Source: a virus. From it: a stretch of 45,782 nt of DNA. The notes beneath the pieces were generated by a model. That model did no database searches, had not been told where the DNA came from, and was given only the letters and a program-made list of their open reading frames with translations. This document shows positions 6,307 to 9,690 of this stretch, in pieces (position 1 is the stretch's first letter; each line of letters opens with the position of its first letter). The translations under genes were made by a program, and so were the position numbers. The stretch lies in UHGV virus genome UHGV-0242872; one strand, given 5' to 3'.

Positions 6307-6333
6307 AAGGCCCCTTTCGGGGCCTTTTTCTTA
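6307..6333. terminator. bidirectional intrinsic terminator
   Basis: AAGGCCCC-TTTC-GGGGCCTT hairpin with U-tract; lies between convergent genes ending at 6302 (+) and 6331 (-). Confidence 0.8.
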
Positions 6334-6885
6334 CAAACCTAATTTTAAAGCAATGTCTATAACGTTCGATTTAACGTCACCCGGTATGATGTAGGTGTCG
6401 TAATCTTTTACACCACTAACATCGTACAGATAGCCACGGCTATCGCCGATGAACGTATAGCCGTCACGATGGAGGCGGACGATTCGCACGTCATGCCCCG
6501 CGGCGACGATAGGGGCAACTTCACTGGCGAATCCACCGTCGGACACTACAAAAACTTCGTCGCCGTCAGGCAAGTTTTCAGCAAGATACTTACCGAAATA
6601 ATCATCGCCGAATACCGGTTTAATGAATTGCTCAGAAACGGCAATCATTAACTGGCGGCGGGACAACCCATTAAGAAAACCCTCGGGTTTTTCTTTCCGC
6701 GCCCGGTCGTCGTAGCCGTCGAGAAATTCGTGGTAAGCATCCTGGCCTAACGCTGCCAAAGCAATATTGAACATTGGATTCTTGAAACTGGTAGTTCCTT
6801 TCGCAAAGCCCATTTCTACCAGCGCCATAGCAAGCGTGTCTTTCCCGCAACCCGCAGGGCCATTAAGAATAATTACCTTAGCCAT
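6331..6885 (-). CDS. P-loop kinase (polynucleotide 5'-kinase or dNMP kinase-like)
   Basis: Walker A GPAGCGKDT near N-terminus; 184 aa; last gene of minus-strand moron cassette. Confidence 0.6.
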   Translation of the reverse strand: MAKVIILNGPAGCGKDTLAMALVEMGFAKGTTSFKNPMFNIALAALGQDAYHEFLDGYDDRARKEKPEGFLNGLSRRQLMIAVSEQFIKPVFGDDYFGKYLAENLPDGDEVFVVSDGGFASEVAPIVAAGHDVRIVRLHRDGYTFIGDSRGYLYDVSGVKDYDTYIIPGDVKSNVIDIALKLGL

Positions 6886-7373
6886 TATTTATCGCTCCCG
6901 TGTGGTTTTAAGTGTGTAGAGTTCCCGTTACAGTCGTATTCGGTAACTGCGTGTGCGGTTATGCCGAGGTCACGGAAATGCTTTATTACCGCGGGAGAGT
7001 CGTCGAATGCGCACAAGATTCTTTCCAGTCCGAAAGCACGCAACACCTCTTCTTTAATTACGATGTCTTTTCTGTTGTCGTGTTTGCTGCGCATGATTAG
7101 CGTGTCAAACCTAACGTTATTCTCTCGTAACCATTCGCGAGTCTCCTCCTCAGCGTCATCACTTCGCCCGGTAAGGATAATTATAGTAAGTCCGGAATGC
7201 CACAGTACGCTACACAAATGGATATTGTCGTATATCGGAGCGTCATCTTTGCAGGCCATGTTAAATGGCTTCCACGCCCACGTTTCTCCGTAGTTATCTT
7301 TTGGTAACAGGTGTAAGCGATGGGTACCGTCGGCCAATGTCCCGTCTAAATCGAAAATTACAATATCTTTCAT
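6885..7373 (-). CDS. HAD-superfamily phosphatase (Pnk 3'-phosphatase-like)
   Basis: HAD motifs FDLDGTL, ILTGR, RKDIVIKEE, AFDDS. Confidence 0.65.
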   Translation of the reverse strand: MKDIVIFDLDGTLADGTHRLHLLPKDNYGETWAWKPFNMACKDDAPIYDNIHLCSVLWHSGLTIIILTGRSDDAEEETREWLRENNVRFDTLIMRSKHDNRKDIVIKEEVLRAFGLERILCAFDDSPAVIKHFRDLGITAHAVTEYDCNGNSTHLKPHGSDK

Positions 7374-8500
7374 CCCAGCATCTCCGGTGAAATAGTTAAA
7401 CGTGCGACCTCGCCATATTCGGCGCTATAAGTAATTACATTTGCACTGCGGCCCGACATCCATCCGCCGCGAGAGGCGTAGGCGTCTTTAGCCGCTAAGG
7501 TGCGGTGTTGCTCAACAATCATGTTACGGCTTTCTACAATCTTCTGGTGGTGCAGATGGCCTACGTGGGCGTAGCTGTAAACACTCTCGCCGAACGCTTT
7601 ACGGAACTTGGCAATCATAACCGGTTCGATAGCGTCGAATCGTGCTTTATGCCCGTGATGGAAGAACAGCGTCGTTTTGCCGTGTTGCACCATCTTATAA
7701 ACATCCGGCGACGTATCGACGAATACACGAGGCTCGTTGTCGTACAGTGTGCTGAACATCTCCGCCAGCCAAATCATCCCGGATTCGTCGTGGTTCCCCT
7801 GAACTATAAGCAAGCGAACAGTTTTATGCTTAACCAGAGCCATATCAACAACACGGCGGACCATGCGAATCATGTAGCGGACAAGTTTCTGGTAACGCGT
7901 GTCGGCGTCAAGGACATGACCACTCGCCGGTGTAACGGCGTCAAGACTATCGAAGTGAGCTAAGTCGCCAAGAAGATTAATAACCCCCGTACCTGCATCC
8001 GGTGCTTTCTGAAACGCAGCATCAAACCAACGAGAGAATAAGTCCTCCGCGATTTTCATATCCCAGTCGTCGCCGCTCTCGTCAGCCCAGGCTAACATAC
8101 CGAGATGGAAATCAGACACGGTGTACAGGTTAAGCAGCTTGTCGTCACGTTTAGCCCGGGCGGCCTTAACTGGCGGAACGGGAGTAATCTCCGACTTCAT
8201 GCCTTCGACTACGGCTTTCATCAACTCAACCTGACGTTCGGCATCGGTGTCTGTCTTAACCCACTGCAACTTAGTGTTACCGAACTCGTCCACCAGAGAC
8301 GACGTGCCTTTAATCTTGTAGCCGTCTGGTACAAGGTGGCTTACGTCCCGCCCGTGGCCTACGCCTTTCTTAGCCAGCTTCGCTTTACGGATTCGGATAA
8401 CGCGGTCTGAGATTCCGTATTTACGGGCGATATCGATATTCTTCATCCCGGCGTTCAATTCTTCCTGTAATTGCTCGTCGGTTATTTTCTTCTGGGCCAT
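7370..8500 (-). CDS. HTH-domain calcineurin-like metallophosphoesterase
   Basis: ATG 8500 with GAGGAAGT SD (track ORF extends to 8605); N-terminal HTH; motifs DFHLG, GDLAHFD, GNHDE, HHGH. Confidence 0.65.
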   Translation of the reverse strand: MAQKKITDEQLQEELNAGMKNIDIARKYGISDRVIRIRKAKLAKKGVGHGRDVSHLVPDGYKIKGTSSLVDEFGNTKLQWVKTDTDAERQVELMKAVVEGMKSEITPVPPVKAARAKRDDKLLNLYTVSDFHLGMLAWADESGDDWDMKIAEDLFSRWFDAAFQKAPDAGTGVINLLGDLAHFDSLDAVTPASGHVLDADTRYQKLVRYMIRMVRRVVDMALVKHKTVRLLIVQGNHDESGMIWLAEMFSTLYDNEPRVFVDTSPDVYKMVQHGKTTLFFHHGHKARFDAIEPVMIAKFRKAFGESVYSYAHVGHLHHQKIVESRNMIVEQHRTLAAKDAYASRGGWMSGRSANVITYSAEYGEVARLTISPEMLG

Positions 8501-8538
8501 GCTTACTTCCTCGTGTTTAGGATTTGTCTTATAGTAGC

Positions 8539-8730
8539 CTACTTCTCTTTCACGTTCGAGTTGCAAGCCCAGATTAAAATGAATACCCACGGCAACAGAA
8601 TCCACCCGAGAAATAAGTTAGCCATGAATATCGCCAGCTTTGCTTTATGGTTACGCATATGTGCCACCAAAAACGGGATAAAATAAACGGCTACAAAAAT
8701 AATTAAGAAGAACATAGTGATACCGGTCAT
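8539..8730 (-). CDS. small two-TM membrane protein, Imm-like (possible superinfection exclusion)
   Basis: ATG 8730 with AGGAG SD; two hydrophobic helices; C-terminal NLFLGWILLPWVFILIWA. Confidence 0.5.
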   Translation of the reverse strand: MTGITMFFLIIFVAVYFIPFLVAHMRNHKAKLAIFMANLFLGWILLPWVFILIWACNSNVKEK

Positions 8731-8772
8731 AACATAACTCCTGATTTGAGATAACATCGTTGGTGTAAGTGA

Positions 8773-8801
8773 ATAGTACGCTATTATATTGGGGTGTGCA
8801 A
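8773..8801 (-). promoter_or_regulatory. sigma70-like promoter TTGCAC-N17-TACTAT for moron cassette
   Basis: -35 at 8801-8796, -10 at 8778-8773 on minus strand; AATAG-N4-CTATT palindrome 8772-8785 overlaps the -10. Confidence 0.55.
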
Positions 8802-8908
8802 GTAGTGTGCTAGAATAATTTTGCGCCTAGTGTCGCACACGAAAAGCGGGTGGTTCCCGTCTGGCGCATTTCCTTTAACCAGTAACCTCTTAACCAAAGG
8901 ATTAAAGA

Positions 8909-9325
8909 ATGAAACTTTCTGATTTTTATTACGAAGCGGAAGCCGAAAAGGGCGCACGTATGCCGATACCGCTAAAAGACGGTACTGATTCCGGGGAATG
9001 GCTTAATGTTGTTTCTCCTGAGGCGGACGTTGCCGTTAAGGCTATGCGCGCGTTCACCCTTGCATACCGGGCAGTATTAGGGAAATTAAAACCGCTTCGT
9101 GATAAGTGCGAAGAGATGAAAGATTTCTCTGAATACAACCTGAAGATGGAAGACGCGGCGACGGACCTTAACCGTCAGTTAGCGATTGAATTGGTTAACG
9201 GGTGGAGCCTTGACGACGAATTCAATAAAGAGAATCTGAACACACTCCTGACGCAATATAAACGACTCGCGGAACTTGTTGTTGTGTTTCATAACGAACA
9301 ACTGCACCAGCTACAGGAAAAGTAG
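8909..9325 (+). CDS. putative tail assembly chaperone (G-like)
   Basis: 138 aa ORF immediately upstream of tape measure gene; ends EK* on the slippery sequence GGAAAAG-TAG. Confidence 0.45.
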   Translation: MKLSDFYYEAEAEKGARMPIPLKDGTDSGEWLNVVSPEADVAVKAMRAFTLAYRAVLGKLKPLRDKCEEMKDFSEYNLKMEDAATDLNRQLAIELVNGWSLDDEFNKENLNTLLTQYKRLAELVVVFHNEQLHQLQEK

Positions 9326-9690
9326 ACGCGTTGCTCCAGTTCGCCCGTTGGAACTTCATAACCCGCCACAAACGGCGGGAATTTGACAGTATCGCCGATG
9401 GGCATAAAGCCGCGCTAATTGCTATGGGGGTTATGCAAGACGCGCCGGATGCAACGCAGGCCGCTGGGCCGGAATGCCCCCCTGAGCTACTAACCACATT
9501 TGAGAAGTACAGGGAAATTAAATTCACCCGCCGAGTGGACGACGACGGCATCAAGATGTACCCGCGCGAGCAATTACGATGGTCAGATTTAGTGGCGTAC
9601 AGCACCGTTTCAGGCCAGAATATAGGGATGTTCGAATCCGACATCATCATGAGCTTAGACGCTATTTTCGAGGGTAGAAACGATGGCTGA
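9322..9690 (+). CDS. putative -1 frameshift extension of tail assembly chaperone (GT-like)
   Basis: -1 frame is open only from 9295 and runs to 9690, overlapping the tape measure start; candidate slip at A-AAG (9319-9322) before stop TAG. Confidence 0.35.
   Translation, partial: VDALLQFARWNFITRHKRREFDSIADGHKAALIAMGVMQDAPDATQAAGPECPPELLTTFEKYREIKFTRRVDDDGIKMYPREQLRWSDLVAYSTVSGQNIGMFESDIIMSLDAIFEGRNDG

What the first reader, a model, noticed from the sequence alone, without database searches (positions are those of the whole stretch)
6331..8801. Moron cassette between major tail and tail-chaperone genes: Imm-like membrane protein plus three phosphoryl-transfer enzymes
Seen in sequence: a four-gene minus-strand unit with its own TTGCAC-N17-TACTAT promoter (8801-8773) and a bidirectional terminator (6307-6333) interrupts the plus-strand structural operon. 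It encodes a two-TM Imm-like protein (NLFLGWILLPWVFILIWA), an HTH-fused calcineurin-like metallophosphoesterase (GDLAHFD, GNHDE, HHGH), a HAD phosphatase (FDLDGTL, ILTGR, RKDIVIKEE, AFDDS) and a P-loop kinase (GPAGCGKDT). Established knowledge: T4 Pnk joins a 5'-kinase and a HAD 3'-phosphatase to heal tRNA ends cut by anticodon nucleases, and bacterial Pnkp uses a metallophosphoesterase for the same chemistry. Inference: a split end-healing module with no ligase in the window, possibly a counter-defence against RNA- or DNA-cleaving abortive-infection systems; a nucleotide-salvage role (dNMP kinase plus nucleotidase) is the main alternative.
Basis: partly seen in the sequence, partly recalled or inferred. 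Interest (0 to 1): 0.7.

Follow-up and report, generated by a model that had tools for sequence, protein, structure and literature searches.

The report
Phage nuclease, phosphatase and nucleotide-kinase cassette
A four-gene unit on the opposite strand inside the tail genes of a known E. coli phage (Kagunavirus) really exists, but it looks like a DNA and nucleotide recycling block plus a superinfection-blocking membrane protein, not an RNA-repair counter-defence; the genes are already annotated in public genomes, so it is fairly ordinary.

Summary
On the minus strand, between the tail tube gene and the tail chaperone genes, lie Imm (8539-8730), an HTH-metallophosphoesterase or MPE (7370-8500), a HAD phosphatase (6885-7373) and a P-loop kinase (6331-6885). 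The last three have overlapping stop and start codons. The unit is flanked by a conserved sigma-70-like promoter and a conserved bidirectional terminator.

The window is a near-complete Kagunavirus genome, 98-99% identical to annotated phages.

- **HAD:** a genuine T4-Pnk-type 3'-phosphatase, with all catalytic residues conserved.
- **MPE:** most similar to the nucleases PolD-DP1, Mre11 and SbcD.
- **Ligase:** none in the genome.

The MPE is fixed at this position across Guernseyvirinae, whereas HAD plus kinase are present in fewer than half. An MPE followed by an optional HAD or DUF4406 gene and then this kinase recurs in unrelated phages, next to dCMP deaminase, FEN, endonuclease VII and DNA ligase genes.

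Best reading: an early DNA and nucleotide metabolism block (nuclease to dNMP to dNDP, with 3'-phosphate removal). RNA end-healing is unlikely.

Side finding: a conserved int-alpA RNA motif (Rfam RF02996) leads the chaperone and tape-measure genes.

The parts
6307..6326 (.). Bidirectional intrinsic terminator hairpin (AAGGCCCC-TTTC-GGGGCCTT). It ends both the tail tube transcript (+) and the cassette transcript (-).
   Evidence: Called on both strands. The stem is conserved with variable loops in 29 of 30 Guernseyvirinae loci, whatever the cassette contains.
6331..6885 (-). P-loop kinase of the T4 gp1 dNMP-kinase family (184 aa).
6885..7373 (-). Stand-alone HAD phosphatase of the T4 Pnk 3'-phosphatase family (162 aa).
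   Evidence: PF25109 HAD_PNKP at E 3.3e-20. phrog_415 at E 3e-64. Best PDB matches are Pnkp1 (4xrp) and T4 Pnk (5uj0, 1ltq). D8, D10, T68, R70, K107 and D125 align with T4 D165, D167, S211, R213, K258 and D278 (residue roles from PMC3592404).
7370..8500 (-). HTH-fused metallophosphoesterase (376 aa): N-terminal helix-turn-helix, a small beta/alpha linker domain and a complete MPE catalytic domain. This is the core gene of the cassette.
8539..8730 (-). Imm-like superinfection-immunity membrane protein (63 aa, two TM segments).
   Evidence: PF14373 at E 1.8e-13. phrog_1039 at E 1.8e-23. In part of the subfamily it is replaced by an unrelated 108-aa protein with a signal peptide.
8773..8801 (-). 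Sigma-70-like promoter of the cassette, TTGCAC-N17-TACTAT.
   Evidence: Not called by the consensus scan. Both hexamers and the spacing are conserved across the Kagunavirus and Jerseyvirus groups while the spacer differs.
8808..8816 (+). Putative divergent extended -10 element (TGcTAGAAT) for the chaperone and tape-measure transcript.
   Evidence: A TGnTAnnnT pattern is conserved in the alignment. Its role is an inference only.
8820..8884 (+). int-alpA RNA motif (Rfam RF02996) in the leader of the tail chaperone gene. It lies next to the cassette but is not part of it.
   Evidence: 36.6 bits against a gathering score of 35.8. RNAalifold independently predicts the same three helices, with 3 covarying pairs.

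Best explanation
The unit is an early or middle, host-RNAP-transcribed accessory operon of Guernseyvirinae, set on the opposite strand inside the late tail operon.

- **Imm (first gene):** inserts in the inner membrane and blocks DNA entry by superinfecting phages.
- **HTH-MPE (core enzyme):** a Mn/Mg-dependent DNA nuclease of the DP1, Mre11 and SbcD type. It degrades or trims DNA, probably host DNA, to 5'-dNMPs.
- **gp1-like kinase:** where present, converts dNMPs to dNDPs, which host Ndk turns into dNTPs for phage replication.
- **Pnk-type HAD:** removes 3'-phosphates from DNA ends, pNp or 3'-dNMPs that would otherwise block exonuclease and polymerase.

This parallels the T4 pathway (gp46/47 nuclease, then gp1 kinase, with the PseT 3'-phosphatase), split into separate small genes.

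Shown here: family and fold assignments, operon structure, conservation and gene neighbourhoods. Inferred: the substrates, host-DNA degradation and expression timing.
For: - The kinase family is encoded next to dCMP deaminase (L085, L088), near ThyX (L088) and next to a DUF4406 deoxyribosyltransferase-like gene (L085).
- In 7 of the 8 kinase-family contexts examined (the window plus 7 related loci, representing about 5 distinct phage groups), an MPE gene lies immediately upstream of the kinase or one gene away. In two T7-like phages that MPE belongs to a different family, phrog_221.
- In other phages the position after the HAD is filled by a dATP/dGTP diphosphohydrolase (PF18909) instead of the kinase.
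- The MPE keeps all metal-ligand motifs and is most similar to nuclease MPEs.
- The HAD has a complete Pnk-type 3'-phosphatase active site.
- Start and stop codons overlap between MPE, HAD and kinase.
- The cassette is on the same strand as the replication genes.
- From my own knowledge of T4: gp46/47 (an Mre11-like MPE) degrades host DNA and gp1 re-phosphorylates the dNMPs. The T4 3'-phosphatase also acts on DNA 3'-phosphates and on 3'-dNMPs.
Against: - No biochemical data exist for any of the three enzymes.
- Sequence profiles alone detect only the P-loop in both T4 gp1 and T4 Pnk, so the kinase assignment rests on the PHROG profile, the predicted fold and gene context.
- Nothing shows that Guernseyvirinae degrade host DNA.
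- Most Jerseyviruses do without HAD and kinase, so the salvage branch is dispensable.
- The MPE lacks a Rad50/SbcC partner, carries an unexplained HTH domain, and in Dhillonvirus sits next to the terminase genes. It may therefore do something else, such as end processing or regulation.
- A 3'-phosphatase has no obligatory step in 5'-dNMP salvage.
Confidence: 0.5

Rival explanations
1. One reading: HAD, kinase and MPE form a split RNA end-healing module that repairs tRNA or RNA cut by abortive-infection nucleases such as PrrC or RloC.
For: The HAD is a true T4-Pnk-family 3'-phosphatase. A P-loop kinase is translationally coupled to it. MPE phosphatases do serve in bacterial Pnkp (established knowledge).
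Confidence: 0.06
2. A DNA-end cleaning and nick-healing pathway. The MPE trims damaged ends, the HAD removes 3'-phosphates, and the kinase phosphorylates 5'-OH DNA ends. Host LigA, or the phage ligase in other lineages, then seals breaks in phage DNA, for example breaks made by host nucleases.
For: A Pnk-type 3'-phosphatase is present. In T7-like phages and in L085 an ATP-dependent DNA ligase follows the kinase, directly or one gene further on. FEN and endonuclease VII lie upstream. Host LigA could replace the missing ligase (established knowledge).
Against: The kinase fold and PHROG are those of a mononucleotide kinase. To my knowledge, in T7 itself the nucleotide kinase gene 1.7 lies near the ligase gene 1.3 without any healing role, so adjacency to a ligase is typical of the DNA-metabolism gene block. 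In other phages dCMP deaminase, DUF4406 or dNTP-pyrophosphohydrolase genes lie next to the MPE, HAD or kinase genes, which points to nucleotides.
Confidence: 0.15
3. Nucleotide-pool counter-defence. The enzymes rebuild or reshape dNTP pools against nucleotide-depleting defences (dCTP deaminase, dGTPase), or the MPE destroys cyclic-nucleotide immune signals.
Against: No direct evidence. Nuclease MPEs score higher than phosphodiesterases. The HTH domain argues for DNA binding. BASEL phenotyping reports nothing unusual for Kagunavirus apart from sensitivity to RM systems and Old.
Confidence: 0.1
4. The HTH-MPE is mainly a DNA-binding regulator or a replication or packaging accessory factor, and the HAD and kinase genes simply landed in a permissive hotspot.
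For: It has an N-terminal HTH with weak GerE/LuxR and 'late transcriptional activator' matches. In Dhillonvirus it lies directly upstream of the small terminase gene. The site downstream of the MPE also accepts HNH homing endonuclease, Rha/ANT and small ORFs.
Against: The MPE catalytic residues are invariant across a very large family. The MPE-kinase pairing recurs in unrelated phages, even with a different MPE family, and the genes are translationally coupled here.
Confidence: 0.1

Closest known systems
T4 gp1 deoxynucleoside monophosphate kinase (PDB 1DEK; phrog_139)
   Different: Only about 21% identity. It lacks the roughly 34-residue insertion of gp1. No Pfam model matches. Substrate range is unknown.
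T4 polynucleotide kinase-phosphatase (PseT; PDB 1LTQ) and Pnkp1 (4XRP)
   Same: The HAD domain belongs to PF25109, with the Asp nucleophile, acid/base Asp, Ser/Thr, Lys and Mg-binding Asp all conserved.
   Different: The phosphatase is a stand-alone protein. The adjacent kinase is not Pnk-type. The genome has no RNA ligase partner. The GenBank label 'polynucleotide kinase' for this protein is a misnomer.
Mre11, SbcD (T4 gp47) and PolD DP1 nuclease-type metallophosphoesterases
   Different: No sequence-level relative in the PDB. It has an N-terminal HTH and a small linker domain. No Rad50/SbcC partner is annotated. No capping domain was identified.
T4 Imm superinfection immunity protein (PF14373, phrog_1039)
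   Same: Pfam and PHROG membership; a small protein with two TM segments.
   Different: Shorter (63 aa). Function in siphoviruses has not been tested.
Morons in the sense of Hendrix (autonomous transcription units inserted in late operons)
   Same: Own promoter and terminator, inserted between two tail genes.
   Different: The core MPE gene is fixed at this site across a whole subfamily and encodes a DNA-metabolism enzyme rather than a lysogenic-conversion function. Only HAD plus kinase, and Imm, behave as variable cargo.

Membership tests
T4 Pnk-type end-healing enzyme (5'-kinase/3'-phosphatase) | DxDxT HAD 3'-phosphatase with Asp165, Asp167, Ser211, Lys258 and Asp278 equivalents | tested here: met
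   PF25109 at E 3.3e-20. D8, D10, T68, K107 and D125 align with the T4 residues. Residue roles are from PMC3592404.
T4 Pnk-type end-healing enzyme (5'-kinase/3'-phosphatase) | Pnk-type polynucleotide 5'-OH kinase domain | tested here: not met
T4 Pnk-type end-healing enzyme (5'-kinase/3'-phosphatase) | Cognate RNA ligase (Rnl1 or Rnl2) encoded by the same genome | tested here: not met
   No ligase is annotated in the 98.5%-identical genome. phmmer with T4 RnlA and three phage DNA ligases against the six-frame translation of the window gives nothing better than E 0.1.
Bacterial Pnkp/Hen1 RNA repair | Kinase, MPE phosphatase and adenylyltransferase in one protein, with a Hen1 partner | tested here: not met
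   The genes are separate. No ligase-like or methyltransferase partner is adjacent. The nearest structural neighbours of the MPE are nucleases.
T4 gp1 dNMP kinase family | Profile membership together with the reference enzyme | tested here: met
   phrog_139: window kinase E 1.3e-44, T4 gp1 E 1.8e-65.
T4 gp1 dNMP kinase family | Fold closest to 1DEK | tested here: met
T4 gp1 dNMP kinase family | Phosphorylation of dNMPs | not testable with these tools
   Needs an enzyme assay. Supported only by gene context.
Mre11/SbcD/DP1-type nuclease MPE | All MPE metal-binding motifs (DxH, GD, GNH[DE], H, GHxH) | tested here: met
   D130, H132, D179, N236, H237, H282, H315 and H317 are invariant or nearly invariant in 38 diverse homologues.
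Mre11/SbcD/DP1-type nuclease MPE | Structural similarity highest to the nuclease members | tested here: met
   5ihe 15.8, 3qg5 15.2 and 7dog 15.1, ahead of LpxH 13.9 and the phosphodiesterases. The margins are modest.
Mre11/SbcD/DP1-type nuclease MPE | Rad50/SbcC ATPase partner | tested here: not met
   None is annotated in the genome, and none is adjacent in any locus examined.
Imm superinfection immunity (PF14373) | Pfam match above the gathering score; small two-TM protein | tested here: met
   50.6 bits against a cut-off of 27.9. Two hydrophobic segments are visible in the sequence.
Moron | Own promoter and terminator inside a late operon | tested here: met
Moron | Sporadic presence among otherwise collinear relatives | tested here: inconclusive
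   HAD plus kinase is present in 13 of 30 loci, and in 53 GenBank records against 288 for the MPE. The MPE is present in all.

The most novel reading that the evidence does not exclude
The MPE, Pnk-type 3'-phosphatase and gp1-fold kinase triad recurs in Kagunavirus, T1-holin siphoviruses and T7-like podoviruses. It could be a dedicated DNA-break healing system, in which a dNMP-kinase-fold enzyme has been recruited to phosphorylate 5'-OH polynucleotide ends. This would let phages repair 3'-P/5'-OH breaks made by host defence nucleases and reseal them with host LigA or a phage ligase.
Probability: 0.1. Interest if true: 0.7.

Novelty: new member of a known kind. Interest (0 to 1): 0.3.

Why it matters
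The practical value is corrected annotation.

- The widespread phage 'polynucleotide kinase' (phrog_415) is only a Pnk-type 3'-phosphatase.
- Its neighbour, labelled 'ATPase', 'replication factor C' or 'ATP-binding protein', is a gp1-type dNMP kinase.
- The 'DNA repair exonuclease' is an uncharacterised HTH-MPE family with thousands of members.

The recurrent pairing of an MPE with this kinase across unrelated phages gives a testable hypothesis: small virulent siphoviruses may recycle host DNA into dNTPs by a miniature version of the T4 pathway. It also argues against reading every phage HAD-plus-kinase pair as RNA repair or counter-defence.

Tried and rejected
- phmmer and profile searches of the kinase against PDB sequences found only P-loop matches.
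- hhalign of the kinase profile against single T4 gp1 and T4 Pnk sequences aligned only the P-loop with both, so it could not discriminate.
- Sequence searches of the MPE against the PDB found nothing useful.
- NCBIfam gave no informative hits. PADLOC gave none.
- The word-index homologue search for the MPE returned only near-identical proteins. The representative search gave the diversity needed.
- The search for related loci with the 38-sequence alignment failed for lack of a conserved stretch. An 8-sequence alignment worked.
BFVD matches carried no functional names.
- Literature searches found no experimental work on these genes in Guernseyvirinae.
- The 411-aa GTG start for the MPE and the 72-aa start for Imm were rejected in favour of ATG starts preceded by ribosome-binding sites. 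GenBank uses the same starts.
Full report
**What the window is**

The 4.6-kb region around the finding is 98-99% identical to annotated Kagunavirus genomes (Guernseyvirinae), such as vB_EcoS_SCS44, fEg-Eco06 and Golestan. It matches 433 phage records in all, mostly Salmonella Jerseyvirus and E. coli Kagunavirus.

The window is essentially a complete, permuted genome of this type. In fEg-Eco06 the four genes are already annotated as 'deoxynucleoside monophosphate kinase (similar to 1DEK_A)', 'polynucleotide kinase', 'DNA repair exonuclease' and 'superinfection immunity protein'. That record has no ligase. Its replication genes lie on the same strand as the cassette.

**Observation check**

The four minus-strand ORFs and all quoted motifs are present. 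The best gene models are:
- kinase, 6331-6885;
- HAD, 6885-7373;
- HTH-MPE, 7370-8500 (ATG behind GAGGAAG, 376 aa);
- Imm, 8539-8730 (ATG behind AGGAG, 63 aa).

The MPE and HAD genes overlap as ATGA, and the HAD and kinase genes overlap as TAATG. The three enzymes are therefore translationally coupled.

The flanks are the tail tube gene (PF18906), two tail assembly chaperone ORFs related by a -1 frame shift (PF08748, PF23812) and the tape measure gene.

The hairpin at 6307-6326 is scored as a terminator on both strands. It is conserved after the tube gene in 29 of 30 related loci, with variable loop sequences.

The proposed promoter TTGCAC-N17-TACTAT (8801-8773) is weak by consensus (7 of 12) and was not called. 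In an alignment of 30 distinct loci, both hexamers and the 17-nt spacing persist between the Kagunavirus and Jerseyvirus groups (TTGCAT-N17-TATTAT) while the spacer differs. I accept it as a promoter. GC content is unremarkable, apart from 0.42-0.45 over Imm and the intergenic region.

**The kinase**

Pfam sees only a sub-threshold P-loop match. PHROGs places the protein in phrog_139, 'deoxynucleoside monophosphate kinase', at E 1.3e-44. T4 gp1 falls in the same PHROG at E 1.8e-65. T4 Pnk falls in phrog_505, phrog_415 and phrog_2071, and the window kinase does not hit any of these.

A MAFFT alignment with T4 gp1 is collinear from the GKDT P-loop to the C-terminus, apart from an insertion of about 34 residues in gp1. 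Sequence-only profile tests against the PDB, or against single T4 sequences, recover only the P-loop and do not discriminate.

**The HAD**

It matches PF25109 (HAD_PNKP) at E 3.3e-20 and phrog_415 at E 3e-64. It also matches the phosphatase half of phrog_505, the T4 Pnk family. The best PDB sequences are Pnkp1 (4xrp) and the T4 Pnk phosphatase domain (5uj0, 1ltq).

Aligned with T4 Pnk, D8, D10, R19, T68, R70, D103, K107 and D124/D125 correspond to D165, D167, R176, S211, R213, D254, K258 and D277/D278. The roles of D165, D167, S211, K258 and D278 are described in PMC3592404.

The protein is therefore a genuine Pnk-family 3'-phosphatase. It has no kinase domain, so the common label 'polynucleotide kinase' is wrong.

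**The MPE**

Pfam matches to Metallophos fall below threshold. The match to phrog_704 ('DNA repair exonuclease') is E 1.5e-167. The family is very large: 4637 representatives of 50%-identity clusters at E<=1e-3. All metal-ligand motifs are invariant.

The PDB holds no sequence-level relative. Viral structural neighbours are unnamed. No Rad50/SbcC partner is annotated.

**Distribution**

I mapped the genes in 80 IMG/VR loci recovered with the MPE, plus two GenBank loci.

- *MPE:* every Guernseyvirinae locus has it between the tube and chaperone genes.
- *HAD plus kinase:* they occur together in only 13 of 30 loci.
- *The slot where HAD and kinase are absent:* it is empty or holds small ORFs, an HNH_3 homing endonuclease or a Rha/ANT protein.
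- *Imm:* it is also replaceable, by a 108-aa protein with a signal peptide.
- *GenBank:* the MPE is found at >=80% coverage in 288 records, HAD plus kinase in 53.

So the MPE is core, and HAD plus kinase and Imm are accessory cargo at a hotspot.

**Context elsewhere**

The MPE-HAD-kinase order recurs in several unrelated settings:
- Two siphoviruses with T1-type holins have helicase, VRR-NUC, then MPE-HAD-kinase, then holin (L092, L093).
- T7-like podoviruses have FEN, endonuclease VII, MPE, HAD, kinase and ATP-dependent DNA ligase in that order (L086/L087 and L046/L047).
- A 74-kb contig has dCMP deaminase, MPE, a DUF4406 deoxyribosyltransferase-like gene, the kinase, one unknown gene and a DNA ligase.
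- Two other T7-like contigs have FEN, endonuclease VII, an MPE of a different family (phrog_221), the kinase and a ligase.
- One contig has dCMP deaminase overlapping the kinase, with ThyX nearby.
- In a further group a dATP/dGTP diphosphohydrolase (PF18909) follows the HAD instead of the kinase.

In 7 of the 8 kinase contexts examined, an MPE lies immediately upstream of the kinase or one gene away. The surrounding genes are those of DNA replication and nucleotide metabolism.

In Dhillonvirus the MPE, which shares about 75% nucleotide identity with the window over 767 bp, stands alone between the endolysin and small terminase genes.

**Interpretation**

The simplest reading is a small DNA and nucleotide metabolism operon. 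An MPE nuclease releases or trims DNA to 5'-dNMPs. A gp1-type kinase converts these to dNDPs. A Pnk-type 3'-phosphatase clears 3'-phosphates that block nucleases and polymerases. This mirrors the T4 combination of gp46/47, gp1 and the PseT 3'-phosphatase (my own knowledge of T4 biology).

Imm, as the promoter-proximal gene, fits early expression for superinfection exclusion.

The steps shown here are family and fold membership, operon structure, conservation and gene context. Substrates, host-DNA degradation and timing are inferred. I put this reading at about 0.5.

The RNA end-healing counter-defence model is weak, at about 0.06. The kinase family is wrong for it, there is no ligase, the MPE is nuclease-like, and PADLOC gives no hits. 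A DNA-nick healing variant that uses host LigA cannot be excluded, at about 0.15.

**Novelty**

The genes and their arrangement are already in hundreds of annotated genomes. No experimental study was found. Three points go beyond the existing annotation:
- the kinase is assigned by fold, PHROG and gene context;
- the 'polynucleotide kinase' label is shown to be a misnomer;
- MPE-kinase linkage is found across unrelated phages.

I rate the finding as a new member of known kinds, with interest about 0.3.

**Side finding**

The intergenic region between the cassette and the chaperone gene is more conserved than the flanking genes. It contains the only Rfam hit in the window that reaches a gathering score: int-alpA (RF02996) at 8820-8884 on the plus strand, 36.6 bits against 35.8.

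RNAalifold on 11 distinct variants independently predicts the same outer stem and two hairpins, with three covarying pairs.

The motif lies just downstream of a conserved extended -10 (TGcTAGAAT, 8808-8816). It is therefore probably the 5' leader of the chaperone and tape-measure transcript, which must restart after the terminator that follows the tube gene.

Noticed in passing
window 8820-8884 (+): Rfam int-alpA RNA motif (RF02996; 36.6 bits against a gathering score of 35.8) sits directly upstream of the tail assembly chaperone gene. It is nearly invariant across Guernseyvirinae. RNAalifold reproduces the three-helix structure with 3 covarying pairs. It is probably the structured 5' leader of the chaperone and tape-measure late transcript, which restarts after the terminator behind the tube gene. 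Its function is unknown.
   Followed up: partly
window 8808-8816 (+) and 8773-8801 (-): Back-to-back divergent promoters: the cassette promoter on the minus strand and a conserved extended -10 (TGcTAGAAT; TGtTATTCT in Jerseyviruses) on the plus strand. The late tail operon therefore appears to be split into two transcription units around the cassette.
   Followed up: partly
L005-L045, equivalent to window ~6331-7370: The slot between the MPE and the tube terminator is a hotspot. Depending on the phage it holds HAD plus kinase, an HNH_3 homing endonuclease, a Rha/ANT antirepressor-like protein, a 76-aa ORF, a 77-aa membrane ORF, or nothing.
   Followed up: partly
L006, L008, L009, L016, L017, L021, L023, L027, equivalent to window 8539-8730: In part of the subfamily Imm is replaced by an unrelated 108-aa protein with an N-terminal signal peptide and no Pfam match. 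This may be an alternative superinfection-exclusion factor in the same promoter-proximal slot.
   Followed up: no
L002 (Escherichia phage vB_EcoS_XY1) 3954-5687: XY1 carries a full-length divergent MPE plus a 187-aa fragment of the Kagunavirus-type MPE, and an extra 58-aa ORF after the kinase. This looks like the scar of a gene replacement by recombination.
   Followed up: no
window 7370-8136 versus Dhillonvirus, Sodalis phage SO-1 and Acinetobacter phage NJ01 records: The C-terminal two-thirds of the MPE gene shares 75-77% nucleotide identity with phages of other genera, where the gene lies between the endolysin and small terminase genes. This indicates mosaic horizontal exchange of this gene.
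   Followed up: partly
window 8909-9690 (+): The two tail assembly chaperone ORFs are in a -1 frame relationship, separated by 5 nt. Both match a single 259-position PHROG profile (phrog_15027), as expected for the canonical G/GT-type programmed frameshift. No slippery site was mapped.
   Followed up: no
L001 (fEg-Eco06) annotation, whole genome: The near-identical genome is annotated with a T7 Gp2-like RNA polymerase inhibitor and an intein inside a minor head protein. Neither was checked in the window.
   Followed up: no
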